The notes: generated by a model not told the origin, from the letters alone. A DNA stretch of 35,456 bases from a virus (IMGVR_UViG_3300042691_005779), one strand, 5' to 3'; shown: positions 1,667-27,845, counted from the stretch's first letter. Numbers and translations: made by a program.

Positions 1667-1954
1667 ATGCCAAAGTTATTAGGAAACAGAGTCCTATTAG
1701 AGATGCCTCCACAAGATGATAGTAGCAAACTTATTGTGGACGAGAACACAAAAGAAGCATTACAAAGAGAATTGCTTAACAAGATGTCTAAACTAAAGGT
1801 GCTACAAGTGGGCACTATTGTTACAGAAATCAAAGAAGGAGATATTGTATTAGTAGATCCAGCAGCTTTAAACAAAGCTACATTGGTTCCCATCAATGAT
1901 AAGGATGAACGTGCAATATTAGTATCACCATTTGATATCATTCAAGTGTGGTAA
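1667..1954 (+). CDS. groES: GroES-like co-chaperonin
   Basis: 95 aa; KLLGNRVLLE (compare the PLGDRVLV motif) and KVLQVG...IKEGDIVLV. Confidence 0.7.
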   Translation: MPKLLGNRVLLEMPPQDDSSKLIVDENTKEALQRELLNKMSKLKVLQVGTIVTEIKEGDIVLVDPAALNKATLVPINDKDERAILVSPFDIIQVW

Positions 1955-2742
1955 CTAAAGATTATATAATGCCCCTATTAGGAGGCAGGTTGGGTAACAA
2001 CTTGTTTATGATAGCTCACGCTCTTGCAAAAGGACTTGACTATAATAAGCAGGTTGTTATTTACAGACCTCATGTAATCTATCATGGCAATGACTATTCA
2101 CAAAACATATTTCGTGAGTTAAAGTTTATAGACTCTTACAAAGACAATAGAAACTATAACTTAGAAGTTCCTTCAGATGATAAACCAACATACTATTTTG
2201 GTTATTATCAAAGTGAAAGTTACTTTGAGAAGTATAGTGAAGGGATTAAACGTTTGTTTGGTCCTCCACAAGATTTTGTAGAAAGGATTATTAATGAACT
2301 ACCTCATCTACATAAGAAGATTGTTACAGTGATTAATGTACGTAGAGGTGACTATCTAAACTCTCCTAATTACCACCCAGTGGTCACACCAGAATACATA
2401 TACAAAGCTATTGAGAAAATACCTGATACAGAGATGTTTCTAATAGCTAGTGATGATATTGAATGGTGTAAAGAAAATATACAGCTGCCCAACATGTTCT
2501 TCTTAGAAGGATATAAACCAGAGGAACAGCTGTGGATTTTATCAATGTGTCAAAACTTTGTACTATCCAATAGCTCATTTAGTTGGTGGGCTGCCTATCT
2601 ATGCAAAAACCCTAACAAGATTGTTGTGGCACCTGAGACCTGGTTTGGTCCAGAGTATCCTCATCTGTGGGATTCAATGTATTGTAAGGATTGGATAATT
2701 TTACCCACCTATTTTGAAAGAGGACTAATAATACCAAAATGA
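1948..2742 (+). CDS. GT11 alpha-1,2-fucosyltransferase-like protein
   Basis: GT11 motifs GRLGNNLF, INVRRGDY, IASDDIEWCKEN and SNSSFSWWAAYL. Start is GTG 1948 or ATG 1969. Confidence 0.85.
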   Translation: MVTKDYIMPLLGGRLGNNLFMIAHALAKGLDYNKQVVIYRPHVIYHGNDYSQNIFRELKFIDSYKDNRNYNLEVPSDDKPTYYFGYYQSESYFEKYSEGIKRLFGPPQDFVERIINELPHLHKKIVTVINVRRGDYLNSPNYHPVVTPEYIYKAIEKIPDTEMFLIASDDIEWCKENIQLPNMFFLEGYKPEEQLWILSMCQNFVLSNSSFSWWAAYLCKNPNKIVVAPETWFGPEYPHLWDSMYCKDWIILPTYFERGLIIPK

Positions 2743-3413
2743 TAAGCGTACTAACAATCACATACAAAAGACACCACTTGCTTGAAGAAGCTGTGGAGTC
2801 TTTCATTAGACAAAACCCTATACCTGATGCTGAGATGGTTGTTGTAAATGATAATCCTGAAGTGGATTATGTTTACGATCATCCTGCTATACGTATATTC
2901 AACCTTAAAGAAAGGTTTCCTTCTATAGCTGCTAAGCTTAAGTGGGGAGCTAAAGCCTGTAAGAATGACTTTATTTATAGATTAGATGATGATGATCTAT
3001 TAGCCCCTAATGCAATCAGTGATGCTACAATGGGAATAATATTAAATAGTGGATATGAAATCTACAGAAGTAAAGACCACTATTTCTTTGTAGACAACAA
3101 GTTCCAGAACATGAGTTCTAACATAAACAATGGAAACATCTACACTAAGAGTTACTTAGATAGAATCACATGGCCTGATAAATCAGGAGATGAAGATGCT
3201 GATATTACATTTGCACACCATGCTAGGATATACGAAGGTTTGCCTACAACAATGATATATAGATGGGGCATGGGTACATTGCACATCTCTGGCATGGGCA
3301 TACAACCTAATGATGTAATCTTAGCTCAGGCAGATAATGTATTAGATGATACAAAAGGAACTATTGTTTTACAACCTAACTTTTTAAATGATTACTATGG
3401 ACAGATTAACTGA
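2739..3413 (+). CDS. GT2-family (GT-A) glycosyltransferase
   Basis: ISVLTITYKR...VESFIRQ...MVVVND and YRLDDDD (DxD). Confidence 0.85.
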   Translation: MISVLTITYKRHHLLEEAVESFIRQNPIPDAEMVVVNDNPEVDYVYDHPAIRIFNLKERFPSIAAKLKWGAKACKNDFIYRLDDDDLLAPNAISDATMGIILNSGYEIYRSKDHYFFVDNKFQNMSSNINNGNIYTKSYLDRITWPDKSGDEDADITFAHHARIYEGLPTTMIYRWGMGTLHISGMGIQPNDVILAQADNVLDDTKGTIVLQPNFLNDYYGQIN

Positions 3414-3948
3414 GATAGCAAATAGAATAGGTACAGATAAAGGAACCATGGATTATGGCCATCATTACACTGTGTTCTATCATGAACTATTGGACGAGCT
3501 GTCTAAGAAACATATAAAAATGTTAGAGATAGGTGTAGCAGATCCTAGATTCCCTGGAGCATCTCTTAAGATGTGGAATGAATATTTTCCTGATATTGAG
3601 CTTATAGGATATGATATTAATCCAGATGCAAAACAATTTGAAAAAGAAAATGTATCTGTATTCATTGGAGATCAAAATAACCCTGCACATCTAGAGGAAT
3701 GTGTAAAGACCTATGGAGGAGACTTTGATATAATTGTTGATGATGGGTCTCACTATGGTGAACATATAGTTACAAGCTTCAAAACATTATATCCATATCT
3801 AAAAGAAGGTGGTATATACATCATTGAAGATTTACATGCTGCACAGCTAGATGAATATAAAATGATTGAAGATATAAAAGCACTCAACTATGAGTCAAAA
3901 CAATTCTATCAAACACATCATAACAAACTGCTAATTATAGTTAAATAA
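3397..3948 (+). CDS. class I SAM-dependent methyltransferase (sugar O-methyltransferase-like)
   Basis: TDKG..HHY, MLEIGV, GYDIN, GDQ and DIIVDDGSH. Start is ATG 3397 (alternative 3388). Confidence 0.8.
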   Translation: MDRLTEIANRIGTDKGTMDYGHHYTVFYHELLDELSKKHIKMLEIGVADPRFPGASLKMWNEYFPDIELIGYDINPDAKQFEKENVSVFIGDQNNPAHLEECVKTYGGDFDIIVDDGSHYGEHIVTSFKTLYPYLKEGGIYIIEDLHAAQLDEYKMIEDIKALNYESKQFYQTHHNKLLIIVK

Positions 3949-3985
3949 AAAAAGCCCTCCATTTCTGGGGGGCTTTTCTTTTATT
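3946..3985. terminator. bidirectional rho-independent terminator
   Basis: AAAAGCCCTCC-ATTTCT-GGGGGGCTTTT hairpin (one G-T pair), with an A-tract on the left and a T-tract on the right, between convergent stops at 3948 and 3981. Confidence 0.85.
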
Positions 3986-4121
3986 TTGACAACCTCTTTT
4001 GTTTAAGAGGCCACATTTTACTTTTCAGTCTAAGCTTTGTGTCAGCTTCCTTCATATAATTACCATTGATTGGTTTAGGAGGAGCCACCTTTGGAGCTTT
4101 TTTAGGTTTACCTGATTTCAT
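3981..4121 (-). CDS. 46-aa Lys/Pro-rich protein (absent from ORF track)
   Basis: Hand translation: MKSGKPKKAPKVAPPKPINGNYMKEADTKLRLKSKMWPLKQKRLSK. TAATG overlap with the upstream gene; stop abuts the terminator. Confidence 0.75.
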   Translation of the reverse strand: MKSGKPKKAPKVAPPKPINGNYMKEADTKLRLKSKMWPLKQKRLSK

Positions 4122-4768
4122 TAGCAACCATTTTTACATTTACCCATAGATTTACCATACTTAGCTTTTACTAGGCCTACAGCTTTTGTAGCTTTACCTT
4201 TGGTGTTCTTACCAATTACACCTTTGTAAGAACCTAACTGACTAGATACAGTGCCACCAGACTTTAATTTCTTAGCAACTTTTTTAACAACCTTCTTACC
4301 AGACTTAGCTAGCTTCTTAGCACCTGCAATTCTATCTGCTTGTGTAGGGTTAGGGTTTTTGTCAATACCAGCTTTTACTGATAGCATACCAAATGCTCCA
4401 CCAGCTTTAGCTTTCTTTACTAACTTACCACCATCTTTTTTCTTCTGTACATATTTCTTTTCAAAGTCTCCTTTACTCATGTAAGTAGTATCGCCTTTGT
4501 TAACTGTAGCATATTTCTTAGTGCCTTCGCCAACAGCCATAGGTTTATCTACACGAGGTTTGAGTTCACCACGAGCAATTTTGTTCATTGTTTCCATCAT
4601 TTCCTCTCTAGTATAAGGCTTAGTGGTATCTGAAGCTTGTCTTTTCTTTAAAAAAGCTGCAACTCTAGGGTCCATGGGTGCACCACTACTTTTAAAAATT
4701 GATCCATTAGTAGTACTGTCAGAAGTTGATCCTTTTCCACCACCTTGGTATTTTTTCATCTTTTTCAT
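4121..4768 (-). CDS. Lys-rich basic protein with multiple K-x-x-x-x-G(G) motifs
   Basis: KKYQGG, KKKDGG, KKAKAGG, KLAKSG, KKLKSGG, VKAKYG. Confidence 0.8.
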   Translation of the reverse strand: MKKMKKYQGGGKGSTSDSTTNGSIFKSSGAPMDPRVAAFLKKRQASDTTKPYTREEMMETMNKIARGELKPRVDKPMAVGEGTKKYATVNKGDTTYMSKGDFEKKYVQKKKDGGKLVKKAKAGGAFGMLSVKAGIDKNPNPTQADRIAGAKKLAKSGKKVVKKVAKKLKSGGTVSSQLGSYKGVIGKNTKGKATKAVGLVKAKYGKSMGKCKNGC

Positions 4769-4789
4769 TTTAATTATTTTTATTTTAGA

Positions 4790-5203
4790 TTAACATTTCC
4801 ATTTACGTAAAGACTTATTAATCCTACTGTTAGGATCATTAGCTGTCTTAGAGCTTGTAAGTTTCTTTTTCATACCTGACATTCTAGCACAGAATGATTT
4901 CTTTCTAGGACCACCTTCAGGTTGTGGAGCTTTAAGACCAGGCTTACCTGGATTAGCTCTGTTGTAAGATGCTCTTCCTTTTGCATTGAGACCACCAGAA
5001 GGATTCTTTCCTTCCTTGCGTTGCCAAGCAGGTGAACTACCACCAGACTTCATAACTTTTTTAGCTGGAGACTTGCTTATTTCACTAGCTGATTGTTTAG
5101 CTGATGCTTTAGCTGCTTCAGTCAATGCTGATCTTTTCATAGCATCATACTTTTTTACAGCTGCTAATTCTTTACCACCTTGAGCTTTCTTAATCCTAGC
5201 CAT
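4790..5203 (-). CDS. basic protein with DUF6321-like C-terminal domain
   Basis: AWQRKEGKNPSGGLNAKGRASYN...KSFCARM...SRINKSLRKWKC resembles the phage DUF6321 family as I recall it; N-terminus is MARIKKAQGG. Confidence 0.75.
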   Translation of the reverse strand: MARIKKAQGGKELAAVKKYDAMKRSALTEAAKASAKQSASEISKSPAKKVMKSGGSSPAWQRKEGKNPSGGLNAKGRASYNRANPGKPGLKAPQPEGGPRKKSFCARMSGMKKKLTSSKTANDPNSRINKSLRKWKC

Positions 5204-5205
5204 AG

Positions 5206-5631
5206 CTATTTCTTTTTACCTTTGTATTTATAATCAGGGTTATCTTTATGCCACTTCTTTGTAGAAGCAACACCCTGTTTAACAGTTTTTGCTCTACCTA
5301 TCTTTGTAAGATCTATAGTGTCCCATTTACCTTTGTCTTTGGTAGGGTGGTTAACCATAATGTTACCCTTCTTACCCTTACCAACACCTGTAGGACTAGT
5401 CTTCTTGTATACTACGTGCTTCTCTCCGCCAGCCATAACTGTCACCTTACCACCTTTTTTAAGTGTAGACCCTTTGAAAGGACCTTTCTTCTTAATTAAT
5501 GGGCCATTGGGAACAGGTGTTATAGCACCTTTGATAGCAGGAAGTGTATCTCCATTTCTAAGAACTCCTTTACCTACATAGGCTTCAGCCTTCTGTGGGT
5601 TATAAACTTTTGTCTTAGGAATTCTAGGCAT
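5206..5631 (-). CDS. Lys-rich basic protein
   Basis: 141 aa; internal TLKKGG; TAACATG coupling to the upstream gene. Confidence 0.8.
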   Translation of the reverse strand: MPRIPKTKVYNPQKAEAYVGKGVLRNGDTLPAIKGAITPVPNGPLIKKKGPFKGSTLKKGGKVTVMAGGEKHVVYKKTSPTGVGKGKKGNIMVNHPTKDKGKWDTIDLTKIGRAKTVKQGVASTKKWHKDNPDYKYKGKKK

Positions 5632-5632
5632 G

Positions 5633-5794
5633 TTATTTACCTTTACGCTTTGCAGCTATTTTCTTGAATGTTTTAGCAAGAGCTTTGGCCTTACCTGTAC
5701 AACCAGGTTTGGTGATAGGGGTGCATTTACCTTCTGTGCCTCTACGTTTAATAGAAGCAGAAGCTTTCTGCATCCACTTTTTATCTGTAGCCAT
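5633..5794 (-). CDS. 53-aa basic protein
   Basis: Start reassigned to ATG 5794 (MATDKKWMQKASASIKRRGTEGKCTPITKPGCTGKAKALAKTFKKIAAKRKGK), 1 nt after the upstream TAA. Confidence 0.8.
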   Translation of the reverse strand: MATDKKWMQKASASIKRRGTEGKCTPITKPGCTGKAKALAKTFKKIAAKRKGK

Positions 5795-5795
5795 A

Positions 5796-6020
5796 TTATT
5801 TCTTTTTAGCAGATTTCTTAACCATCTTACCAGCTTTAGCCTTAGGCTTAACAGGTTTAGGGGCAGGTTTAGCATACTTACCTTTACCAGCTTGCTTATC
5901 TAGAGCATCAGCCATCTTAGTAGCACGTGCATCTCTATCAGCTTTCTTAATCATCTTGCCTGGTTTCATTTCACTAGGAACCACCTTGTCACCACCTTGA
6001 GCTTTCTTAATCATTTTCAT
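5796..6020 (-). CDS. 74-aa Lys-rich basic protein
   Basis: MKMIKKAQGG N-terminus, KAKAGK, KKK C-terminus. Confidence 0.8.
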   Translation of the reverse strand: MKMIKKAQGGDKVVPSEMKPGKMIKKADRDARATKMADALDKQAGKGKYAKPAPKPVKPKAKAGKMVKKSAKKK

Positions 6021-6021
6021 G

Positions 6022-6360
6022 TTATTTCTTTTTAGAAGATTTTAACTTAGGAGCCATTTCACCACTGCGTTTTTCTATTAATTCAGACTCACGCTTTAAT
6101 GCTGCATTTCTGAAACTTGCTGGATTCATTTCTTTATACGCAGGTGTTTTCTTGTCAAGACCATAAGACTTTTCAGAACGTCCCATACTAGTGGCACCAA
6201 GTTCTTTATCTTTCTTTAACTTAGGAGTCATTCTAGCATTTGCTAGTGTAGCCTCTTGAACTTTAGTCCAAGCACCATTAGGATCCACAGGACCTACACG
6301 CTTGTCAGAAGCTTTTAATCCTGACAGACTGCCCATACCAGCTTTTTTAATCTTTGCCAT
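6022..6360 (-). CDS. Lys-rich basic protein
   Basis: MAKIKKAGMG N-terminus; TAATG overlap with the upstream gene. Confidence 0.8.
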   Translation of the reverse strand: MAKIKKAGMGSLSGLKASDKRVGPVDPNGAWTKVQEATLANARMTPKLKKDKELGATSMGRSEKSYGLDKKTPAYKEMNPASFRNAALKRESELIEKRSGEMAPKLKSSKKK

Positions 6361-6944
6361 TATTTTTTAGTTTTAGCTTTTATTTTCTTTTCTTGTTTCA
6401 ACATAGCAGCTGTAGGCTTCTTTCCAGATCCTTTAGCAGCCCTGATATTATCCCAAAGTCCTCTTTGAGAGTATGAACCATCAGCACGCTTCAACATAGT
6501 CTTACCACCATTTTTATTCTGTGAGTAACCTTGTTGTTTATCTATTACACCCTTTTTTGATTGCTTAGCACTGCTGGCAATCTTTGTTGACTTTGAGCCA
6601 GCTGTGTTATAGAAGTCTTCTCTAGCACCTGAAAATCTTTCTGAGAAAGATGGTCTATCTTTTCCAGGACCAAGTTTTTCAGGAGGGTTTTCTCTATATC
6701 TTTGTTCTAACCCTGCAGCTTTACGTTGTGCGTTTCTTTCTGCAGAGATAGCATTTTTTTGTGCAGCAGGCATTCTACGAGTTATTTGTTTTGTGCCACC
6801 AACAATAGCTGCTTCTTTTGCTGCCTTTTCTCTTGCAACATTTAATAAACTTTTACTAAGTTGGTTTTCTGCAGAAGCCCCCATGTACTTACCTAATAGA
6901 CTTCTGACAATTCCACTCTGTGCCTTTTTAACTGCCTTTTTCAT
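6360..6944 (-). CDS. Lys/Ala-rich basic protein
   Basis: MKKAVKKAQSG N-terminus; NKNGG followed by a GLWDNIRAAKGSGKKPT module. Confidence 0.8.
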   Translation of the reverse strand: MKKAVKKAQSGIVRSLLGKYMGASAENQLSKSLLNVAREKAAKEAAIVGGTKQITRRMPAAQKNAISAERNAQRKAAGLEQRYRENPPEKLGPGKDRPSFSERFSGAREDFYNTAGSKSTKIASSAKQSKKGVIDKQQGYSQNKNGGKTMLKRADGSYSQRGLWDNIRAAKGSGKKPTAAMLKQEKKIKAKTKK

Positions 6945-7219
6945 TATAATGTATTTTTAGGAGTTTCTTCAACTTCTTTAACAATGCCTGCTTCTACACC
7001 TCTAGCAAGAACAGATTCTACAGCACCTGCTGCTCTGTCTGCTAAGAAGATAGCGTGTGCTTCTGGTGTATTTGTAATAGCACGTAAAGCATTTAAAATT
7101 AGACCAAACTCTCCTCCAGAGATGGTAAAGTTATGTTCTGTTGACCATGTATATTTCTTACTAGGGTCATAACTTGGGGCTTCATTAGCCACTTCTACTT
7201 CGTTGATTTGTTCTGACAT
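6944..7219 (-). CDS. hypothetical acidic protein
   Basis: 91 aa; first gene after the promoter at 7243-7274. Confidence 0.75.
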   Translation of the reverse strand: MSEQINEVEVANEAPSYDPSKKYTWSTEHNFTISGGEFGLILNALRAITNTPEAHAIFLADRAAGAVESVLARGVEAGIVKEVEETPKNTL

Positions 7220-7242: not shown

Positions 7243-7274
7243 CAAAGATATGTATAATTTAGTTACTGTCCAAA
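7243..7274 (-). promoter_or_regulatory. Bacteroidota housekeeping sigma promoter (-33/-7)
   Basis: Minus strand TTTG (7271-7274), 20-nt spacer, TATCTTTG (7243-7250); 24 nt upstream of ATG 7219. Confidence 0.8.
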
Positions 7275-7549
7275 TTTATTTCAAACACAATGGTAGCAGA
7301 GCTTTTGATGCTTTTGCTTAGGTCCAGTTTGATATGGAATAGATTATGGAATTTTAATAGTTCTTCTAACAACATCTCATTGTACATAGGTACAGAGGCA
7401 GCCAATCTAAAATGGTAGGAGTGAGGATTTTTAGTTATCTCTAATGTAGAAAGCTCATCCACTGATGCAATAATTCCCTCGAGGTGAGCAAAATAAGCAA
7501 GTTCGTTATCTTGCATCACCTCTGGGAAGAATTTCTTGTTAATCTGCAT
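7259..7549 (-). CDS. hypothetical protein
   Basis: 96 aa; TAATG overlap with the Dps-like gene. Confidence 0.75.
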   Translation of the reverse strand: MQINKKFFPEVMQDNELAYFAHLEGIIASVDELSTLEITKNPHSYHFRLAASVPMYNEMLLEELLKFHNLFHIKLDLSKSIKSSATIVFEINLDSN

Positions 7550-7953
7550 TAAGACAAGGTTAATAAGTATTTAGTTTTTGCTGCTTCACCACTCAATGCA
7601 TCTGCTAGATTTGCTATATCGTGATAGTTGTTTGCTTCAGCATAGCTTTTTAATGAAGATGCAAAAGATAAAAGTTTTGACACACATTCATCCCCTGTAC
7701 AATTTGTAAGAGGTTCTATCTTATATGGAGCAGGACGTTTGCCTGTGTATCCCATAAGCTTCTCAATAACACCATCTTTGAAATCATGTACATAATCATA
7801 CAGTCCCCCTAAAGCTTGGTGCTCAGCATAACTCTTTGTTTGCCAATGAGTTAAGTGTAATTGCTCATGGAAATATGTAAGCTTCCCAGCTATTGTTTCC
7901 AAGTTTAATTCTCCTGATTTCATCATCTCATCAGGGAATAATGATTTTGCCAT
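7549..7953 (-). CDS. Dps/ferritin-like protein (DUF5856-like)
   Basis: QLHLTHWQTKSYAEHQALGGLYD...FKDGVIEKLMG matches the Dps H-W...H..L..xY.....D..xE ferroxidase pattern; ends with KYLLTL. Confidence 0.8.
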   Translation of the reverse strand: MAKSLFPDEMMKSGELNLETIAGKLTYFHEQLHLTHWQTKSYAEHQALGGLYDYVHDFKDGVIEKLMGYTGKRPAPYKIEPLTNCTGDECVSKLLSFASSLKSYAEANNYHDIANLADALSGEAAKTKYLLTLS

Positions 7954-7967
7954 TTATGTTGATTTTA

Positions 7968-8453
7968 TTATCCAGGATTAGTTGTAGTGGTAGTTGTAGT
8001 AACAGGTCTAGTTGTTGTAGTTGTTGTTGTAGGTGTTGCTGTAGTAGTGGTAGTAGTAGTTGTATTACTAAAACTTACTTCAGGATCAAAACTAGAACAC
8101 TCACAACCAGCTCCTGCTGTAATAACTGTTGTAGTTCCTGATGCATTTACTGCAGATATAGAACCAGTTACAGCACATATAGTAGCTACTAATAAGTTGG
8201 TACCAACTAAATTTACAGTTTGTGTGCTGTTGTCAACACCAGATCTGTAAGTGATAACACTTGATAGAGCACCTGAAGCAGTTGCTACAACTTGATAAGA
8301 GGTACCACCACTGTTGCACTCGTACCCTTGTACTTGTTGCCAGTTACCCACTTTTGGTTTGTTTCTTCTAAGGATTAAGCTCCCTGGAACTACTCTGCCA
8401 CTACCATCGTAGCGGACATAAGCTTTAAGATCACGATTGTTAATGCTTCCCAT
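7968..8453 (-). CDS. protein with poly-Thr C-terminal tail
   Basis: Ends NTTTTTTTTATPTTTTTTTRPVTTTTTTTNPG (23 Thr in 32 aa). Confidence 0.8.
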   Translation of the reverse strand: MGSINNRDLKAYVRYDGSGRVVPGSLILRRNKPKVGNWQQVQGYECNSGGTSYQVVATASGALSSVITYRSGVDNSTQTVNLVGTNLLVATICAVTGSISAVNASGTTTVITAGAGCECSSFDPEVSFSNTTTTTTTTATPTTTTTTTRPVTTTTTTTNPG

Positions 8454-8469
8454 TTTTTAATTTTTATGG

Positions 8470-9486
8470 TTAATAGTTAAGGTTATATTTTTGTTTTAAA
8501 TTCAATAGTTCTTTTACGTAGTAATGAGTGGCATATTTCTTAGACGTCTCATCTGTGTGCACTACATATAAATGTGTGTCTTCAAAAGGATCTTTACCAG
8601 TGTGGTAGGCCCCTTTGTAGAACGCAGGATATCCCATGTTATGTTGTCCTGTAATTCCTGCATTGTGTAGAAGTGTTGTTCTCTCCAGTTTCTCAATTGG
8701 ATCTGAAGACCAACAGAATTCTAGTTCAGGAATGTTTTTAGTTTCTTGTTCTCTAAGCCAAATGTTCCATAGCACAGCCCACATATCTGCACACCAGCTT
8801 TGAAACCCTTTGTTCTCATCTTTAAAGAACTGTTTGTTTATGTTCTGAAGATACATGCGAATGATAATACAATCATTCATCACCTTCTTCCAAAACTCTG
8901 AGTCTATATTCTTAAGGAAGTATTGTGCTCCTCCTGAATGTTCATTGTTAGCCTCAGCTATTTCTCTGTTGATTCCTATGAGGCTTGTAACCTCTGCAAG
9001 GATATCTCTAGTCTTGTATTCTTCAAGCTTCTCTGGAAGCACATCTTTTATCTTACTATCAAAGTATGAAGCATTGATATAACTGTTTGTGTCAGATAGA
9101 TAGTTTATATCATCATCTTTAAACTCATCAATGTTAAATTTATCTGTAAAGATTACGTCACAGTCACAGTAAAACACTGCTTTGGTGATCATATCAGGAT
9201 TGTCCTGGAAATATCTCATTAAGCAATAGGGACGTAGAATAGGAATATACACTCCTAAATACTCACTAACGTTTCCTGTATCCTTGTAGAAAGCAAATTT
9301 TGCTTCTGGATACAGCTCCATTATCTTCTCCCATTTACCATTGTATTCTCTAAAACTAGGAGTGTACACTAAAACAATTGCCTTGTCTGAATGTCCAAGC
9401 TTCTTCAAGCTTTCCAACCATAGATGTACTTGCCATGTGTAGTAGACATCATCTGGCTGGGCACAGATAAATTTAAGATCCTTCAT
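8470..9486 (-). CDS. GT-A glycosyltransferase resembling plant peptidyl-Ser galactosyltransferase / Hyp arabinosyltransferase (GT96/GT95-like)
   Basis: YYTWQVHLWLESLKKLG, YIPILRPYCLMRYF, VFYCDCDVIF (DxD) and SWCADMWAV follow the order of the SGT1/HPAT motifs as recalled (Y.xWQ, Y.xxN[KR]P, DxD, W.xEMY). Confidence 0.6.
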   Translation of the reverse strand: MKDLKFICAQPDDVYYTWQVHLWLESLKKLGHSDKAIVLVYTPSFREYNGKWEKIMELYPEAKFAFYKDTGNVSEYLGVYIPILRPYCLMRYFQDNPDMITKAVFYCDCDVIFTDKFNIDEFKDDDINYLSDTNSYINASYFDSKIKDVLPEKLEEYKTRDILAEVTSLIGINREIAEANNEHSGGAQYFLKNIDSEFWKKVMNDCIIIRMYLQNINKQFFKDENKGFQSWCADMWAVLWNIWLREQETKNIPELEFCWSSDPIEKLERTTLLHNAGITGQHNMGYPAFYKGAYHTGKDPFEDTHLYVVHTDETSKKYATHYYVKELLNLKQKYNLNY

Positions 9487-21194: not shown

Positions 21195-24100
21195 ATGCCC
21201 AACAGTTACACATATTTTAAGCAAGAGGTGAAGGAGTGGTTCAGGGATAATGTTCCTGCTAACACAAAAGTGTTAGACGTAGGTCCTGGACAGGGTACAT
21301 ATGGTAAGCTTTTATTTGAACTTGGGTATGCAATAGATGCTGTTGAGGTGTGGGATCCATACATTAGTGAGTATAAACTGTGGGAGTATTATGGTAATGT
21401 ACATATTGCTGATATACGTGAGTTTGATTGGTCTGAGTATGAGTTCATCATCCTAGGTGATGTGCTAGAACACCTAACAGCTGAAGAAGGACAGAAGCTC
21501 ATCACTGATATTGCCATGGCTAGGAAGCAATGTTTGGTTGCTATTCCCTATATGATGGAGCAAGATGGTGAGGAGTATGGTAATACATATGAGACCCACC
21601 TGCAAGCAGACCTTACAAAGGAGGTGATGGCAGAGCGTTATCCTACACTAGACTTGCTCTATGCCAATGATTACTATGGATATTATGTAAGTAAGAAGAT
21701 AGCAGACAAAGCATTTGTACTCTATGCCACAGAAGCTTATTATGATATTGTGACAGCCTGTGTTAAGTCACTCACTACATTCAGTCAGTATCCAGTGTTT
21801 GTATACATGCTTAACTCTGACAAGAAGGTGCCCAGGGCTACAACTATCAGGTGGAACTGTGATATAGATCCAATAGAATACAATACCAAAGAACAGTTCT
21901 ACATCAATAGAACAGATGATAGAGTATATAACATCCTCATACAGCGTCCACTGATTGTTATAGACTGTCTGAAGTATGCTGACACTGTAATGTATGTAGA
22001 CAGCGATAGTGTTGCTACACCTTTTGTAGATAAAGTGTTTAACTACCCTGTCTCTGAGTATCCCCTATTTACATCTAGCATCTATGACCAGATGTTCCTA
22101 AATGGAAAAGGAGACCTTGAGAAACCTATTTGTGATCTATTAGATATACAGAGAGGCAGGTATATACAAACAGGATACTTCCTAGCCAATAGAGATTGTC
22201 TACCATTCTTACAAGAGTGGGCTAGTTTATGTATTGATGCAAGAGTGATGGGTGATTTCAAACTCTATGCTCCATTCCATGAAGAGACATTAGCTAATGC
22301 AACACTTTGGAAGAATGATTATAACAAATCTCTACCACTCATCTATACTAATGCTAGCTTAGATGTATTAGAGAACATAGATAAATATGAGTTTGGTAAA
22401 GAGCATTGGGAATGGTTTAAACTACCTGATAGTAAGCATGAGTTGTTCTTCTACCATGGAGAGAAGAGACCAGATGTAATGTACAAGATGATTAGTAGAT
22501 TGAAAGGTAATAAGAGAGTGTTATTTCTAGCACCTCACCTATCTACAGGTGGTATGCCTGCGTTCCTATTAAAGAGAATACAGGAGATAAAAGACCATGT
22601 AGAGATATATGTAGTTGAGTATCAATGCCACAGCTTAGACTTTGTTGTACAACGTAATGCTATCAAAGAGATTGTAGGATCTAACTTCACTACACTGTAT
22701 GAGAACAAGATGGAGCTGTTTGATATTATTGATAGCTGGAAGCCAGACATCATTCATCTAGATGAACCTGCTGAAAGATATAACAGAGAGATGATTACTA
22801 AGTTGTATGATGTAAACAGATCATACAAGATTGTAGAGACATTCCATGATGTAGCATTCAAGCCTGAAGAAAAGATGTTTCAGTCAGAAGCATATGCATT
22901 CTGTACACCATACCACCTCAATAAGTTTACAAACTTACAGGGTTATAGAAAGGTGATTGAGTTTCCTTTAGAAAACAAGAAACCAACTAACACACGTAAG
23001 ATAATAGCTAAGAACAAGGTAGGGTTTGCTCCATTCAGGACTAGTGTTGTAAATGTAGGACTGTGGACTCCAGGTAAAAATCAAGCAGAGGGAATTGAAA
23101 TAGCTAAGAAGTATCCTCATATGGATTTCTATTTTGTAGGTAATCAAGCTGGTAACTTCAAAGATTACTGGGAACCTTTAATGAAAGACTTACCAAAGAA
23201 TGTATATGTTCTAGGAGAGAAGAGCAATGTAGAAGACTATTTAACAGCTGCAGATATATTCATGTTCAACAGCACATGGGAATGTAATCCTCTTGTACTT
23301 AGAGAAGCAATCAGTTATGCACTACCTGTTGTAGCTAGAAACCTACCACAGTATGAAGATATGTTTACTAAGTATCTTCTACCTATAGATAGTGACTTTG
23401 ATGAAATATACAATCAGTATAGAAATGGTATTGTTCAGTATGACATACCAGACATTACATTTAGACAAGACAACATAGACTTCTACAATCATGTAGATTC
23501 TATCTCTCTACAGCCACAAGATGTAACCATCACACAGCATTACATAGTTAATCCATTTCTTGAGATAACAGGTGTGAGTGATAGTAACTTCAAAATAGAA
23601 TACTATGATGAGCAGGGTGTATGTCACTACAGTAGTGTAATCAAAACCAACCAGTGGGTAAAGTTAAACAGAAGTTATTACACTAAATGGAGAAACAAGA
23701 TATGGCAAGATGGCAATCTTATACACGACTACACACTAGACTATACAGACAAGACTGTGTTCATCTACTTTGATAGTGAAAGTCTTGGTGATACAATTGC
23801 ATGGATGCCATACTGTTTAGAGTTTAAGAAGAAGCACAACTGTCATGTTGTTGTAAGTACATACAAAAACTTCTTGTTTGAGAAGGCCTATCCAGAGCTT
23901 GAGTTTGTTGCACCTGGAACACCTGTGAATGCTTATGGAGAATACATAATAGGTTGGAGATATAACACAGACCAAGAGCCTGAGTTATGTAACACCATCC
24001 CTCTACAGAAAGCAGCTACTAATATACTTGGACTAGAATACAAAGAGATAAGACCTAGAATTGCTTATACACCTGTACAGTTTGAAGACAGGACTAAGTA

Positions 24101-24587
24101 TGTAACTATTGCTACGAATAGTACAACAGGATGTAAGTTTTGGACTAGAGAAGGGTGGCAAGAAGTGATTAACTATCTAGTGAGTCAAGGATACAAAGTG
24201 TACAATGTATCTAAGGAAAGAAATCCATTTGATAACTGTGTACAGATAGAAGACACATCAATGGATAACACCATCAATATGATTTGGAACAGTAAGTTCT
24301 TTATAGGACTTAGTTCAGGATTAAGCTGGTTAGCTTGGGCTTTAGGTAAACAAGTGGTGATGATTTCTAACTTCACCAAAGCAGACCATGAGTTTCAATC
24401 TAACTGTATTAGAATTACAGATGAGAGCGTGTGTCATGGATGTTGGAACAATAAGAACTTCAAGTTTGATAGAGGAGACTGGAACTGGTGCCCTATCTGG
24501 AAGGGTTATGACAAACAGTTTGAATGCCATAACACCATCACAGCAGATAAAGTTATAGCTTCCCTTCAGCCTTTAATTGTTCTCTAA
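21195..24587 (+). CDS. four-domain enzyme: SAM methyltransferase, GT-A, GT4 (GT-B), Aah/TibC-like protein O-heptosyltransferase
   Basis: VLDVGPGQG and GDVLEHL; YVDSDSV; FLAPHLSTGGMP and ECNPLVLREA; SLGDTIAWMPY, FIGLSSGLSWLAWA and CHGCW...WCP...QFEC. Confidence 0.8.
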   Translation: MPNSYTYFKQEVKEWFRDNVPANTKVLDVGPGQGTYGKLLFELGYAIDAVEVWDPYISEYKLWEYYGNVHIADIREFDWSEYEFIILGDVLEHLTAEEGQKLITDIAMARKQCLVAIPYMMEQDGEEYGNTYETHLQADLTKEVMAERYPTLDLLYANDYYGYYVSKKIADKAFVLYATEAYYDIVTACVKSLTTFSQYPVFVYMLNSDKKVPRATTIRWNCDIDPIEYNTKEQFYINRTDDRVYNILIQRPLIVIDCLKYADTVMYVDSDSVATPFVDKVFNYPVSEYPLFTSSIYDQMFLNGKGDLEKPICDLLDIQRGRYIQTGYFLANRDCLPFLQEWASLCIDARVMGDFKLYAPFHEETLANATLWKNDYNKSLPLIYTNASLDVLENIDKYEFGKEHWEWFKLPDSKHELFFYHGEKRPDVMYKMISRLKGNKRVLFLAPHLSTGGMPAFLLKRIQEIKDHVEIYVVEYQCHSLDFVVQRNAIKEIVGSNFTTLYENKMELFDIIDSWKPDIIHLDEPAERYNREMITKLYDVNRSYKIVETFHDVAFKPEEKMFQSEAYAFCTPYHLNKFTNLQGYRKVIEFPLENKKPTNTRKIIAKNKVGFAPFRTSVVNVGLWTPGKNQAEGIEIAKKYPHMDFYFVGNQAGNFKDYWEPLMKDLPKNVYVLGEKSNVEDYLTAADIFMFNSTWECNPLVLREAISYALPVVARNLPQYEDMFTKYLLPIDSDFDEIYNQYRNGIVQYDIPDITFRQDNIDFYNHVDSISLQPQDVTITQHYIVNPFLEITGVSDSNFKIEYYDEQGVCHYSSVIKTNQWVKLNRSYYTKWRNKIWQDGNLIHDYTLDYTDKTVFIYFDSESLGDTIAWMPYCLEFKKKHNCHVVVSTYKNFLFEKAYPELEFVAPGTPVNAYGEYIIGWRYNTDQEPELCNTIPLQKAATNILGLEYKEIRPRIAYTPVQFEDRTKYVTIATNSTTGCKFWTREGWQEVINYLVSQGYKVYNVSKERNPFDNCVQIEDTSMDNTINMIWNSKFFIGLSSGLSWLAWALGKQVVMISNFTKADHEFQSNCIRITDESVCHGCWNNKNFKFDRGDWNWCPIWKGYDKQFECHNTITADKVIASLQPLIVL

Positions 24588-24939: not shown

Positions 24940-25361
24940 ACATGTTTGATTTTATCTACACTATCTTCAATAGAAGTGTTAGATGTATTAATAATTAAAT
25001 CTACATCATCTTTCTGTGGTAGCTCAAAGTCTGCCACTTTAAATTGATCTCTACCTCTATCTTCTTCATATGTGAGATAGATCCATTTAACATCTCTGGT
25101 TAGACTGCTTAGATACTCTCTAGCTTCTTCATAAGGATACACTAGTGATAACACTATGTTATAGTTTCTTGCTTTATTCAAATAGTAAGCAATATCACTA
25201 GCTCTGTTTAAGTTTTTAATCCTACCTTCTTTACTGTAGTCTTTGTTCTTAAACATATCTCTTAGTTCATCACCATCTATGTGGTGGAATCCCTCTGCTA
25301 TAAACTTTTTAGCAAGAGTTGTCTTGCCTGATGCAGGCTGTCCAAATAATACTATTATCAT
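24924..25361 (-). CDS. cysC: adenylylsulfate (APS) kinase-like P-loop kinase
   Basis: GQPASGKTT, IDGDELR, DYSKEGRIKNL, SLVYPYEEARE, FELP. Confidence 0.8.
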   Translation of the reverse strand: MIIVLFGQPASGKTTLAKKFIAEGFHHIDGDELRDMFKNKDYSKEGRIKNLNRASDIAYYLNKARNYNIVLSLVYPYEEAREYLSSLTRDVKWIYLTYEEDRGRDQFKVADFELPQKDDVDLIINTSNTSIEDSVDKIKHVCRIF

Positions 25362-26176
25362 TTTGTATATCTAAATTGTTGAAAGAACCATTGGTAATTA
25401 TCCCATATCCAGTTTGTAACGTCCTTACCTAATAAGGCTTTTGCTCTAGAAGGAACAGGTTCTAATCTAGTACGAATAGTGTGGTCACCAAAGCTACCAT
25501 ACACCTCATCATCTTCTTTAGTAACTTGTTCTATATTATCCCAATCATGTTGGTAATAAGGAATGCCTAGGTATTGATATATCCTTTGCATCTCTGTATC
25601 TGGATATAGACACAAGTCTTCAAACTTAACAAACAATACATGTTTGTCTATCCCTAGCCTAAACATCTCTTGTAATCTTTCTATAGCTAGACCAACAGGT
25701 TGACTCTGTGCCCAGATGTCTATACGTTTAGGAACTGTTGTTCCTTGCATCTGTGCCCAATTAAGAATAGCATTAGCCTTATCAGGATTCTTTCTGTAGT
25801 TGTTCTCCATAGAAGCAAAGACATCACGTAGGTCTCTCACCATACATATAATCTTTGGCTCTGGGTGGATAAAGTTTAGGAAGTCATAATGTATTCCCCA
25901 TCCTCTAGATTTGTCTACAACATATTTCTTATCTGTAATAGCATTGTAATAAGCAATCATTCCTTCTTTACAGAATGCTTGGAATGCAGCTTTCATTACT
26001 TGTGGATCTTGAGCTTGGAACTCAGGACTGTCTGTATAGTTTCCTCTAGCAGCAAACACTAACTCAAGTACACCACTAGTTGGTGTAGCATAGATGTCTG
26101 GATTTTGTGCTAATATGTTTTGTAACAATGTTGAACCTGCTCTTGGTAAAGAGCTTTGATAGAATATATTCTCCAT
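25358..26176 (-). CDS. PAPS-dependent sulfotransferase
   Basis: 5-prime PSB loop SLPRAGSTLL; 3-prime PB motif MVRDLRDVFASM; KFEDL. Confidence 0.85.
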   Translation of the reverse strand: MENIFYQSSLPRAGSTLLQNILAQNPDIYATPTSGVLELVFAARGNYTDSPEFQAQDPQVMKAAFQAFCKEGMIAYYNAITDKKYVVDKSRGWGIHYDFLNFIHPEPKIICMVRDLRDVFASMENNYRKNPDKANAILNWAQMQGTTVPKRIDIWAQSQPVGLAIERLQEMFRLGIDKHVLFVKFEDLCLYPDTEMQRIYQYLGIPYYQHDWDNIEQVTKEDDEVYGSFGDHTIRTRLEPVPSRAKALLGKDVTNWIWDNYQWFFQQFRYTK

Positions 26177-27479: not shown

Positions 27480-27845
27480 TTAAATTAAATTATTGTTTTT
27501 CAAAATATTTTCTATTATTTTTATTCTATCCTTCAGACTATCATTCTCAGCTTTAAGTTCTTTGAATGCGTTTACATAAGAAGCATAGATGGCATCTTTT
27601 TCAAATTGTAGTATTGGGCTACCACCTTCTCCAACTATCACCTCAAGACCATTTTCATCCACTCTTGAAACACTGTTGACTTCTACAACACAAGCCATTG
27701 CTTGTTGTACCTCTTGAGCTATGAAGCCATACTTTCTATGACATGACACATCCCCATTCCAACAATAGCTTACAGGTCTTAGTTTGATAATATCATCTAA
27801 ACCAAAGCATGTATCTTGAATAGTATTCTTTCTTCTGCAATCAGA
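27480..27845 (-). other. peptidase S74 intramolecular chaperone domain
   Basis: SDCRRKNTI...LDDIIKLRPVSYCW...YGFIAQEV...C-terminal coiled coil; predicted cleavage at the Ser encoded by 27843-27845. Confidence 0.85.

What the first reader, a model, noticed from the sequence alone, without database searches (positions are those of the whole stretch)
3981..6944. Eight consecutive Lys-rich genes built from peptide cassettes joined by a K-x-[AYLM]-[QK]-x-G(G) motif
Seen: eight basic ORFs, mostly coupled by TAATG or TAAnATG junctions, downstream of one promoter (with one acidic gene first) and ending at a terminator. Five begin M-x(1-4)-KK-[AY]-[QG]-x-G (KKAQSG, KKAGMG, KKAQGG twice, KKYQGG). The motif recurs internally (KAKAGG, KLKSGG, VMKSGG, TLKKGG, NKNGG, KAKAGK), often just before a distinct module such as the DUF6321-like domain or the GLWDNIR and GMLSVKAGID modules. 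Known: adenovirus, ASFV and poxvirus core proteins mature by cleavage at Gly-Gly or Ala-Gly sites. Inference: these are polyprotein-like, DNA-condensing virion core proteins, and the motif is a protease site or capsid-loading tag.
Basis: partly seen in the sequence, partly recalled or inferred. Interest (0 to 1): 0.8.

Follow-up and report, generated by a model that had tools for sequence, protein, structure and literature searches.

The report
Shuffled lysine-rich cargo genes, crAss-like phage
Eight small, very basic genes at the end of the late genes of an uncultured crAss-like phage are built from strongly conserved mini-modules that relatives recombine at a short conserved delimiter (K-K-A-Q-x-G / K-x-G-G). 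They are most likely extra proteins carried inside the virus particle, but neither packaging nor cutting at the delimiter has been shown.

Summary
One acidic gene and eight Lys-rich genes (pI 10.2-10.8) lie on the minus strand between a Bacteroidota-type promoter-like box and a strong terminator. Most are joined by TAATG or TAAnATG. Five start M-x(3-5)-KK[AY][QG]xG, against 0.003 expected from shuffles.

Complete 112-118 kb relatives are crassviruses (muzzle, ring, portal and MCP families). Across six phages the same modules are split, fused and reordered, and every mapped joint lies at K-x-G-G or KKAQxG. The delimiter is selected at protein level, because its codons vary synonymously.

The GLWDNIR module also sits inside true crassvirus cargo-protein-1 orthologues and inside proteins with SLT, glucosaminidase or ART-PolyVal domains. 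The DUF6321 module ends a cyanomyovirus protein whose authors, who did virion mass spectrometry, labelled it 'virion protein'. So packaged cargo is the best reading.

The protease-site idea is not excluded but lacks support. Nine protease families gave no hit in four or five complete relatives, and a comparable GG in crAss001 gp45 lies inside an ordered, continuous segment. Whole-genome DNA condensation is unlikely on charge and space grounds.

This scan has found the same cassette type before on other DNA (e1-1872781, e1-1842441, e1-1857056). Nothing has been tested experimentally.

The parts
7243..7250 (-). TAnnTTTG box (TATCTTTG), a Bacteroidota-type -7 promoter element, in the 39-nt gap before g1
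   Evidence: The box is frequent in the window (54 found, 42 expected), so this is plausible only.
6944..7219 (-). g1: conserved acidic 91-aa protein (pI 4.7, net -7), always the first gene of the cassette
   Evidence: The family has 94 clusters, all 65-98 aa, with no Pfam domain on record; the long contigs that carry it are 110-114 kb. No Pfam or PHROG hit.
6360..6944 (-). g2: 194 aa. KKAQSG leader, a helical middle part, an NKNGG delimiter, then a C-terminal GLWDNIR module of about 47 aa
6022..6360 (-). g3: 112 aa. KKAGMG leader followed by an 'SLSGL..KRVGPVDP' module
   Evidence: The same module is internal, after K-x-GG, in G001, G003 and G004.
5796..6020 (-). g4: 74 aa, 31% Lys. KKAQGG leader, with KAKAGK near the C-terminus
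   Evidence: In G001 this module is fused to the GLWDNIR module.
5633..5794 (-). g5: 53 aa, no leader, Cys pair C24/C32
   Evidence: It stands alone in L002 and G001. In G002, G003 and G004 it is fused behind K-x-GG.
5206..5631 (-). g6: 141 aa. Two modules joined at TLKKGG
   Evidence: In L002 and G003 the first module is joined at the same point to DUF6321 instead.
4790..5203 (-). g7: 137 aa. KKAQGG leader, a helix, a VMKSGG delimiter, then a C-terminal DUF6321 domain (residues about 56-137, Cys105 and Cys137)
4121..4768 (-). g8: 215 aa. KKYQGG leader and three modules, joined at KKDGG-KLV-KKAKAGG and at KLKSGG. It ends C-K-N-G-C
3981..4121 (-). g9: 46 aa, conserved last gene of the cassette
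   Evidence: It is the last gene in all five relatives.
3950..3977 (.). Bidirectional intrinsic terminator hairpin (12 bp, 6 GC pairs) between the cassette and the convergent plus-strand genes
7259..7953 (-). Conserved upstream neighbours: a 96-aa gene and a DUF5856 (Dps/ferritin-like) gene. This is context and is not shown to be part of the system

Best explanation
This is the variable 'small cargo' cassette of a crassvirus, a Crassvirales-like phage that probably infects a Bacteroidota host.

It consists of one acidic gene and eight Lys-rich, largely disordered proteins. They are probably made late, from their own promoter-like site, at the very end of the late virion gene block.

Each protein is a string of short, strongly constrained modules such as GLWDNIR and DUF6321. 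Each module start is marked by a delimiter of the form (hydrophobic or Ala)-[Q/K]-x-G-(G). Its strict form, K-K-A-Q-x-G, also sits right after the initiator Met.

Shown:
- the modules and the delimiter exist;
- the delimiter is under protein-level selection;
- it marks every mapped recombination joint in six phages;
- the modules also occur inside true injected cargo proteins.

Inferred:
- the proteins are packed in the capsid with the DNA and leave with it;
- the delimiter is a recognition element (loading or docking tag) rather than a passive hinge, because it is kept even at N-termini, where nothing needs linking;
- fusion or fission at delimiters is nearly neutral, which lets the cassette shuffle.

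Whether the tag is also cut off, as the T4 capsid-targeting sequence is, remains open.
For: - Gene anatomy and coupling.
- Motif enrichment: N-terminal motif in 5 of 8 against 0.003 expected; cassette 13 against 1.2 expected; rest of the window 2 against 3.6.
- Relatives are crassviruses. G001 has TerL, portal and MCP PHROG families, and crAss_MUZ (E 1.8e-39), CrAss_Ring_1 and CrAss_Ring_2. The cassette closes the roughly 84-kb late block.
- The module map of six phages places every joint at K-x-G-G or KKAQxG. The GLWDNIR, g5 and DUF6321 modules occur both as stand-alone genes and fused.
- Of 120 GLWDNIR proteins of 106-340 aa, 100 carry the motif in the first 22 residues, with K98 K97 A91 Q100 x G100.
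- All synonymous codons are used in the delimiter.
- Internal KKAQxG follows a GG by 1-3 residues in 26 of 45 contexts, against a 5.6% background.
- The GLWDNIR module shows 92% median amino-acid identity but 76% nucleotide identity.
- Fusions: the module lies next to the portal-binding crAss_CARG1 domain in a Tara protein that sits directly after the ring and muzzle genes. It also occurs with SLT, glucosaminidase, YkuD and ART-PolyVal domains. crAss001 gp45 is a virion cargo protein by mass spectrometry and cryo-EM (PMC10172136).
- The DUF6321 protein ORF29 of S-SCSM1 is labelled 'virion protein' although it has no homology-based function (PMC9602691).
- AlphaFold2 models give low confidence for the leaders and delimiters and higher confidence for the modules.
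- In G001 the delimiter is also enriched in two large non-basic late proteins near the muzzle gene: 6 against 1.2 expected and 3 against 0.8.
Against: - There is no proteomic, expression or structural evidence for any protein of this lineage.
- The cassette lies after the tail-fibre and lysis genes, not in the head or cargo block.
- None of the eight proteins has the portal-binding CARG1 domain.
- The virion link rests on shared modules, and modules can be reused in different contexts.
- The 'virion protein' label for S-SCSM1 ORF29 was read from the GenBank record, not from a peptide list.
- The same modules occur without any KKAQxG leader in pelagiphage HTVC033P and as leaderless 48-aa genes in G002 and G004. 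So the leader is not needed everywhere.
Confidence: 0.55

Rival explanations
1. Processing site. The delimiter is cut by a phage or host endopeptidase. Split and fused gene forms would then give the same mature peptides, and the N-terminal M-x3-4-KKAQxG would be a removable propeptide like the T4 capsid-targeting sequence.
For: - The motif is sequence-specific, conserved at protein level, and lies in segments predicted to be disordered.
- Stand-alone module genes start exactly where GG ends in the fused forms: MAK-TMLKR against GGK-TMLKR, and MAK-SPAW against GGS-SPAW.
- Internal KKAQxG lies 1-3 residues after GG, so a cut after GG would recreate the arrangement seen at gene starts.
- Free fusion and fission of modules.
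Against: - No hit to Peptidase_S78, S77, S78_2, ClpP, C5, C48, C39 or M23 in four or five relatives that are 98-100% complete.
- No peptidase among 47 late proteins scanned, apart from the S74 tail-fibre chaperone.
- In crAss001 gp45 the GG at residues 427-428 lies inside the continuous ordered segment 425-552 (PMC10172136). The main text of that paper holds no word beginning 'protease' or 'cleav'.
- The motif's register differs from the adenain and LXGG consensus sites.
Confidence: 0.2
2. Passive hinge. The delimiter is only a flexible Gly-rich linker. It appears at joints because recombinants elsewhere would break modules, and it has no recognition function.
For: - Gly-rich and predicted to be disordered.
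- Joints coincide with module boundaries.
- Leaderless versions of the modules exist.
Against: - A hinge does not need an invariant Q and G with K-K-A before them in 100 of 100 diverse proteins.
- A hinge does not need an aromatic residue or Met three positions before GG (3.3-5.4-fold enrichment).
- A hinge has no purpose at an N-terminus with nothing upstream.
Confidence: 0.12
3. Not virion proteins. These would be late intracellular nucleic-acid-binding proteins, for example for compacting the host nucleoid or handling phage DNA, that share modules with cargo proteins only by domain reuse.
For: - The cassette lies outside the head and cargo blocks, next to lysis and tail-fibre genes, and has its own promoter-like site.
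- Extreme basicity.
- A Dps-like gene lies next to the cassette.
Against: - Module fusions are to portal-bound cargo protein 1 and to cell-wall-cutting ejection-type enzymes.
- A DUF6321 protein is labelled 'virion protein'.
- The delimiter is shared with the large late proteins near the muzzle gene of G001.
Confidence: 0.15
4. Protamine- or histone-like core. The proteins would neutralise and condense the packaged genome in bulk, as adenovirus protein VII does.
For: Net charge of +13 to +38 per protein and 16-31% Lys.
Against: - One set of the eight carries +186 charges per roughly 107 kDa.
- The roughly 5.1 MDa cargo zone measured for crAss001 (PMC10172136) also has to hold the RNA polymerase proteins. 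Even if filled with these proteins it would hold about 45 sets, or roughly 4% of the approximately 230,000 phosphates of a 115-kb genome. This transfers a number from another crassvirus and is an inference.
- Module conservation of 92% amino-acid identity against 76% nucleotide identity points to a specific partner, not generic charge.
Confidence: 0.08

Closest known systems
Bacteriophage T4 internal proteins IPI, IPII and IPIII with their capsid-targeting sequence (established knowledge; Mullaney and Black 1996)
   Same: Both are several small basic proteins encoded in a variable cluster. Both share a roughly 10-residue N-terminal sequence and are packed with the DNA and injected; for this cassette that last point is inferred.
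   Different: There is no sequence relationship (no PHROG hit). The T4 leader ends in a gp21 site (L/I-x-E) and is cut off. Here no gp21-type (S77) or other prohead protease was found, the motif ends in Gly, and it also recurs inside the proteins as a module delimiter.
Crassvirus cargo protein 1 (PhicrAss001 gp45; Pfam crAss_CARG1, PF25725; Bayfield et al. 2023, PMC10172136)
   Same: Same virus order. The GLWDNIR module of g2 occurs in orthologues that sit directly after the muzzle gene. gp45 also has (aromatic)-G-G just before or at the start of its two ordered segments.
   Different: The eight window proteins lack the portal-binding CARG1 domain. They are 46-215 aa rather than about 750-850 aa, are far more basic, and are encoded at the other end of the late block.
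DUF6321 proteins of T4-like cyanophages (for example S-SCSM1 ORF29 'virion protein', and the 926-aa ACG-2014f protein between terS and terL) and of pelagiphages
   Same: The C-terminal 80 residues of g7 are 65-84% identical to these proteins. They too are basic mosaics of short modules. The domain is nearly always at the extreme C-terminus.
   Different: Different virus families. The cyanophage forms are one long chain, and the pelagiphage forms are single-module mini-genes. Neither uses the KKAQxG leader.
Adenovirus, ASFV and poxvirus core-protein maturation at GG/AG sites (adenain C5 and Ulp1-like C48 proteases)
   Same: Basic proteins with recurring x-G-G motifs at segment boundaries.
   Different: No C5 or C48 protease was found in four complete relatives. 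The hydrophobic residue lies one position further from GG than in (M/I/L)-X-G-G. The resemblance is of motif only.
Polyvalent proteins of phages and conjugative elements (Iyer, Burroughs, Aravind and co-workers 2017; named from my own knowledge)
   Same: Injected proteins assembled from many swappable domains. One GLWDNIR-containing protein carries ART-PolyVal.
   Different: Here the units are 40-100-residue basic modules spread over many small genes. No enzymatic domain was found in the window's cassette.

Membership tests
Pfam DUF6321 (PF19846) | Match to the family model above the curated cut-off | tested here: met
   g7 residues 65-135: E 2.2e-19, 70.3 bits against a cut-off of 28.5. 25 invariant columns are shared with 45 relatives.
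Crassvirus cargo protein 1 (crAss_CARG1) | Portal-binding CARG1 domain | tested here: not met
   No PF25725 hit in any cassette protein at E <= 1. There is only a sub-threshold hit (E 0.007) to a g3/g5-type fusion in G003.
Crassvirus cargo protein 1 (crAss_CARG1) | Gene position directly after the muzzle gene and before the RNA polymerase genes | tested here: not met
   The cassette closes the late block, after the tail-fibre and lysis genes.
Crassvirus cargo proteins in the wide sense (proteins carried in the virion and ejected) | Detected in purified virions | not testable with these tools
   No cultured relative exists. There is only indirect support from shared modules and from S-SCSM1 ORF29.
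T4-type internal proteins with a capsid-targeting sequence | Shared short N-terminal sequence on several small basic proteins of one cluster | tested here: met
   5 of 8 proteins against 0.003 expected. 100 of 120 relatives carry it.
T4-type internal proteins with a capsid-targeting sequence | Leader removed by a gp21-type prohead protease at L/I-x-E | tested here: not met
   No Peptidase_S77 hit in five relatives, although the control genomes did not ring either. The motif ends in Gly, not Glu.
T4-type internal proteins with a capsid-targeting sequence | Sequence homology to IPI, IPII or IPIII | tested here: not met
   No PHROG family of internal proteins was hit.
Adenain/Ulp1-processed viral core proteins | C5 or C48 cysteine protease encoded by the virus | tested here: not met
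   No hit at E <= 1 in four complete relatives.
Adenain/Ulp1-processed viral core proteins | Cleavage consensus (M/I/L)-X-G-G|X or G-G|X shown to be cut | tested here: inconclusive
   GG sites are enriched for M, Y, F and H three residues before the first G, which is one position further out than in the adenain consensus. Cleavage itself cannot be tested here.

The most novel reading that the evidence does not exclude
The (hydrophobic/Ala)-[Q/K]-x-G-G / KKAQxG delimiter is the recognition site of a still unrecognised endopeptidase, of the phage or the host. Crassvirus cargo, both the giant proteins and these small basic ones, would then be made as GG-punctuated polyproteins and matured into a fixed set of peptides whatever the gene architecture. 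That would be a phage counterpart of adenovirus or ASFV core maturation.
Probability: 0.2. Interest if true: 0.85.

Novelty: new variant of a known kind. Interest (0 to 1): 0.58.

Why it matters
Crassviruses are among the most abundant phages, and what they carry into the cell besides DNA is only partly known.

This cassette shows a large, undescribed layer of small basic putative cargo. The GLWDNIR search gave more than 2,000 protein clusters, and the DUF6321 search gave about 2,500 representatives of 50%-identity clusters.

It also shows a simple grammar, in which each module is preceded by a conserved delimiter. That grammar appears to hold for the giant cargo proteins too.

If the delimiter is a loading tag, it could be used to load foreign proteins into such phages, as the T4 targeting sequence is used. 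If it is a cleavage site, a protease is missing from every current crassvirus annotation.

The modules are shared at 65-90% identity with cyanophages and pelagiphages. Their partner is therefore something common to very different phages or hosts.

Tried and rejected
- Megablast of 9 kb against GenBank phages gave no match.
- tblastn of g2, its C-terminal module, g6 and g8 against the same collection gave no match. Only DUF6321 reaches cultured phages.
- No whole genome is held for the window. The ENA scaffold behind L002 could not be searched as a record.
- No paper contains 'DUF6321'.
The only paper that uses that name calls it a hypothetical protein of a zwf/gnd cassette, so I did not use the equation.
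- Protease hunt: Peptidase_S78, S77, ClpP, S78_2, C5, C48, C39 and M23 all gave nothing. The idea that an M23 Gly-Gly endopeptidase, present in one Tara crassvirus cargo protein, processes the delimiters was dropped because the window's relatives lack M23.
- Pfam on five giant G001 proteins gave only collagen and S74.
- Phage_capsid Pfam gave no hit. The MCP was found through PHROGs instead.
- Complex prediction of acidic g1 with g4 gave no verdict (score 0.00).
- The DUF6321 model had no match among solved structures. Profiles of g2 and g7 found no solved relative.
- The protein atlas gave only unnamed viral clusters for g1.
- A DNA-level role for the delimiter (recombination or regulatory site) was rejected because all synonymous codons are used.
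- A weak crAss_CARG1 hit to a g5-type module in G003 (E 0.007) was treated as probably compositional.


Full report
ANATOMY

The finding lies on the minus strand. An acidic gene, g1 (6944-7219, 91 aa, pI 4.7), is followed by eight basic genes:
- g2: 6360-6944
- g3: 6022-6360
- g4: 5796-6020
- g5: 5633-5794
- g6: 5206-5631
- g7: 4790-5203
- g8: 4121-4768
- g9: 3981-4121

The eight have pI 10.2-10.8, 16-31% Lys, and net charges of +13 to +38, summing to +186 over 972 residues. Junctions are TAATG three times, TAAnATG three times, TAGCTATG once, and one 21-nt gap. For g5 and g9 I chose the ATG that gives such a junction rather than the longer overlapping ORFs.

A 12-bp GC-rich hairpin with a T-run at 3950-3977 ends the unit. 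A TAnnTTTG box (7243-7250) sits in the 39-nt gap before g1. It fits the Bacteroidota -7 promoter consensus, but the box is common in this AT-rich window (54 found, 42 expected).

IS THE MOTIF REAL?

- Five of the eight basic proteins start M-x(3-5)-KK[AY][QG]xG. Composition-preserving shuffles give 0.003 such proteins on average. None of the other 150 ATG ORFs of the window has it.
- A broader delimiter pattern occurs 13 times in the cassette against 1.2 expected, and 2 times in the other 40-odd genes of the window against 3.6 expected.
- The patterns were chosen after looking at the data, so the independent evidence below from other genomes matters more.

WHAT PHAGE IS THIS?

- Nothing in GenBank phages matches at DNA level.
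- g2 has more than 2,000 relatives in metagenomes.
- Four IMG/VR genomes of 112-118 kb, 99-100% complete by CheckV, share the neighbouring 338-aa protein at 63-78% identity. An ENA scaffold of 107 kb carries the same gene order.
- I laid out one relative, G001. It has TerL, portal and major-head PHROG families in a row. It also has crAss_MUZ (E 1.8e-39), CrAss_Ring_1, CrAss_Ring_2 and an HU-like protein. It is therefore a crassvirus.
- Its cassette (44566-47193) closes a late block of about 84 kb, after the giant proteins, collagen-type tail fibres and lysis genes. The window shows the same order.
- The nearest cultured hit for the 338-aa neighbour is a Chryseobacterium phage at 35% identity. 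This agrees with a Bacteroidota host.

CASSETTES AND JOINTS

I cut the window proteins at the delimiters and searched the pieces in five relatives (raw ORFs). g1 is always the first gene and g9 always the last. In between, the modules are split, fused and reordered.

- The GLWDNIR module is the C-terminus of g2 after NKNGG. In G001 it follows KKMKAGG and in G003 it follows LKMKKGG. In G002 and G004 it is a stand-alone 48-aa gene that starts MAK.
- DUF6321 follows VMKSGG, VMKNGG, KQKNGG, TLKNGG or SMKDGG in different phages.
- The first half of g6 is joined at TLK[KDN]GG either to the second half of g6 or to DUF6321.
- The g3 module follows the N-terminal KKAGMG here and an internal KKFESGG or KMKNGG elsewhere.
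- The first module of g8 follows an N-terminal KKYQGG leader here. In L002 it lies downstream of an internal KKAQSG.

THE DELIMITER

- Among 120 GLWDNIR proteins of 106-340 aa, 100 have the motif within the first 22 residues. The column counts are K98 K97 A91 Q100 x G100, usually after M plus three or four residues. Several of the other 20 are simply mis-called starts.
- All synonymous codons are used for K, A, Q and G. Selection therefore acts on the peptide, not on a DNA or RNA signal.
- Inside proteins, KKAQxG is preceded by GG one to three residues upstream in 26 of 45 distinct contexts, against a 5.6% background. g8 shows this form (KKDGG-KLV-KKAKAGG). The complete delimiter is thus bipartite: K-x-G-G, one to three residues, then K-K-A-[Q/K]-x-G.
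- In 120 longer relatives (341-1,750 aa), GG sites number 1,315 against 943 expected. They have His, Met, Tyr or Phe three positions before the first G (3.3-5.4-fold) and Ile, Met or Val after.
- In G001 the delimiter is enriched in the cassette (7 against 0.6 expected). It is also enriched in two large non-basic late proteins near the muzzle gene (6 against 1.2, and 3 against 0.8). One of these starts with a basic stretch followed by YEQGG.

LINK TO THE VIRION

The longer GLWDNIR proteins carry crAss_CARG1, SLT, glucosaminidase, YkuD or ART-PolyVal domains. One of them (745 aa) occurs on 24 contigs, including Tara scaffolds. It lies directly after CrAss_Ring_2, CrAss_Ring_1 and crAss_MUZ, which is the position of cargo protein 1. 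In it the GLWDNIR module, flanked by YAKGG and MGAGG, immediately precedes the CARG1 domain.

In PhicrAss001, gp45 (cargo protein 1) was detected in virions by mass spectrometry. Its residues 425-552 are bound to the portal, and its residues 214-245 lie in the tail barrel (PMC10172136).

DUF6321, the C-terminal domain of g7, has 2,491 cluster representatives and is nearly always the extreme C-terminus.
- In T4-like cyanophages it ends long basic mosaic proteins encoded beside the terminase genes.
- In S-SCSM1 that protein (ORF29, 517 aa) has no homology-based function but is labelled 'virion protein' by authors who ran mass spectrometry on CsCl-purified particles (PMC9602691).
- I did not see a peptide list, so this is a reading of their annotation.
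- In pelagiphage HTVC033P the same kinds of module are seven separate mini-genes before an amidase gene, without any KKAQxG leader.

IS IT A PROTEASE SITE?

For:
- The motif is specific, conserved and in segments of low model confidence. pLDDT is about 50 for the leaders and for the NKNGG and VMKSGG regions, against 80-94 for several modules.
- Stand-alone module genes begin exactly where GG ends in the fused forms.
- A cut after GG would put KKAQxG next to a new N-terminus, as at gene starts.

Against:
- Nine protease families were tried and none was found. Peptidase_S78, S77, S78_2, ClpP, C5, C48, C39 and M23 gave no hit in four or five complete relatives. For S77 the control genomes did not ring either, so that result is weak. 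The ninth family, S74, is only the tail-fibre chaperone.
- Scans of 47 late proteins of G001 against Pfam or PHROGs showed no other peptidase.
- In crAss001 gp45 the GG at residues 427-428 lies inside the continuous ordered segment 425-552, so that bond is intact in the particle. The GG at 209-210 lies four residues before the ordered helix 214-245 (with PMC10172136).
- The motif's register differs from adenain's (M/I/L)-X-G-G.

I put cleavage at about 0.2.

IS IT A DNA-CONDENSING CORE?

One copy of each of the eight proteins weighs about 107 kDa and carries +186 charges. The cargo zone of crAss001 is about 5.1 MDa and must also hold the RNA polymerase proteins. Even if filled with these proteins it would hold about 45 sets. 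That would neutralise about 4% of the phosphates of a 115-kb genome.

This transfers a number from another crassvirus and is an inference, but it makes bulk condensation unlikely.

The GLWDNIR module shows 92% median amino-acid identity against 76% nucleotide identity. Only half of the conserved residues use the same codon. The amino-acid figure is inflated by the search pattern I used. Even so, a constraint of this strength points to a specific partner shared by very different phages or hosts. No solved structure resembles either module.

READING

The most economical account is a variable set of small basic cargo proteins. Their module starts carry a recognition tag. The tag makes fusion and fission at those points harmless, which explains the shuffling.

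The tag's presence at N-termini, where no hinge is needed, argues against a passive linker. Its absence from pelagiphage and some stand-alone forms shows that it belongs to the crassvirus packaging context and not to the modules themselves.

The role of the acidic first gene is unknown. A complex prediction of g1 with g4 gave no verdict.

EARLIER NOTES OF THIS SCAN

Earlier notes describe the same cassette type, the IKKAQxG tag and GG-delimited cargo in other crass-like genomes. My results agree with them and add:
- the six-genome joint map;
- the bipartite form of the delimiter;
- the codon test;
- the protease survey;
- the cargo-protein-1 orthologue context;
- the charge budget.

Noticed in passing
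window 7549-7953 (-), with 7259-7549 (-): A DUF5856 (Dps/ferritin-like; PHROG 858) gene and a 96-aa gene lie directly upstream of the cassette. They keep that position in L002, G001 and G003.
   Followed up: partly
window 7968-8453 (-): A 161-aa protein has a conserved N-terminal part of about 45 residues and a long poly-Thr (mucin-like) tail. Relatives have 61-67-aa versions with shorter Thr runs, so the tail length is hypervariable.
   Followed up: partly
window 5633-5794, 4790-5203, 4121-4768 (-): The only cysteines in the cassette come in pairs: g5 C24/C32, g7 C105/C137 (the last residue), and g8 C211/C215 (the last residue; C-K-N-G-C). The C-terminal pairs are conserved in relatives (C-K-Y-G-C). 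They could form disulfides or metal knuckles.
   Followed up: partly
window 27480-35456 (-), runs off the window: An open frame of at least 2,658 aa has collagen repeats, an ice-binding-like beta roll and a C-terminal S74 intramolecular chaperone. It is a giant tail fibre.
   Followed up: no
window 1948-3948 (+), 21195-24587 (+), 25358-26176 (-): Several glycosyltransferases, a methyltransferase-like protein and a sulfotransferase are encoded around the virion genes. This suggests a phage-encoded glycan-modifying set.
   Followed up: no
L003 3898-5243 (Pelagibacter phage HTVC033P gp42-gp36): A row of seven tiny basic genes (42-96 aa) lies just before an amidase gene. Each looks like a single module, including a GLYANIHAKRKR relative of GLWDNIR and a stand-alone DUF6321. 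This is the fully split version of the same module set.
   Followed up: partly
L095 1678-1890 (G003): A 70-aa non-basic ORF is inserted in the middle of the basic cassette of one relative.
   Followed up: no
L100 14113-17280 (Tara crassvirus): A 1,055-aa protein two genes after cargo protein 1 carries a Peptidase_M23 domain, probably a cell-wall-cutting ejection enzyme. The window's relatives lack M23.
   Followed up: partly
window 8470-9486 (-): This 338-aa protein (phrog_4417) has 30-35% identical relatives in a Chryseobacterium phage and in many Enterococcus, Lactobacillus and Staphylococcus phages. In some of those records it lies beside a major tail protein gene. Its function is unknown.
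   Followed up: no
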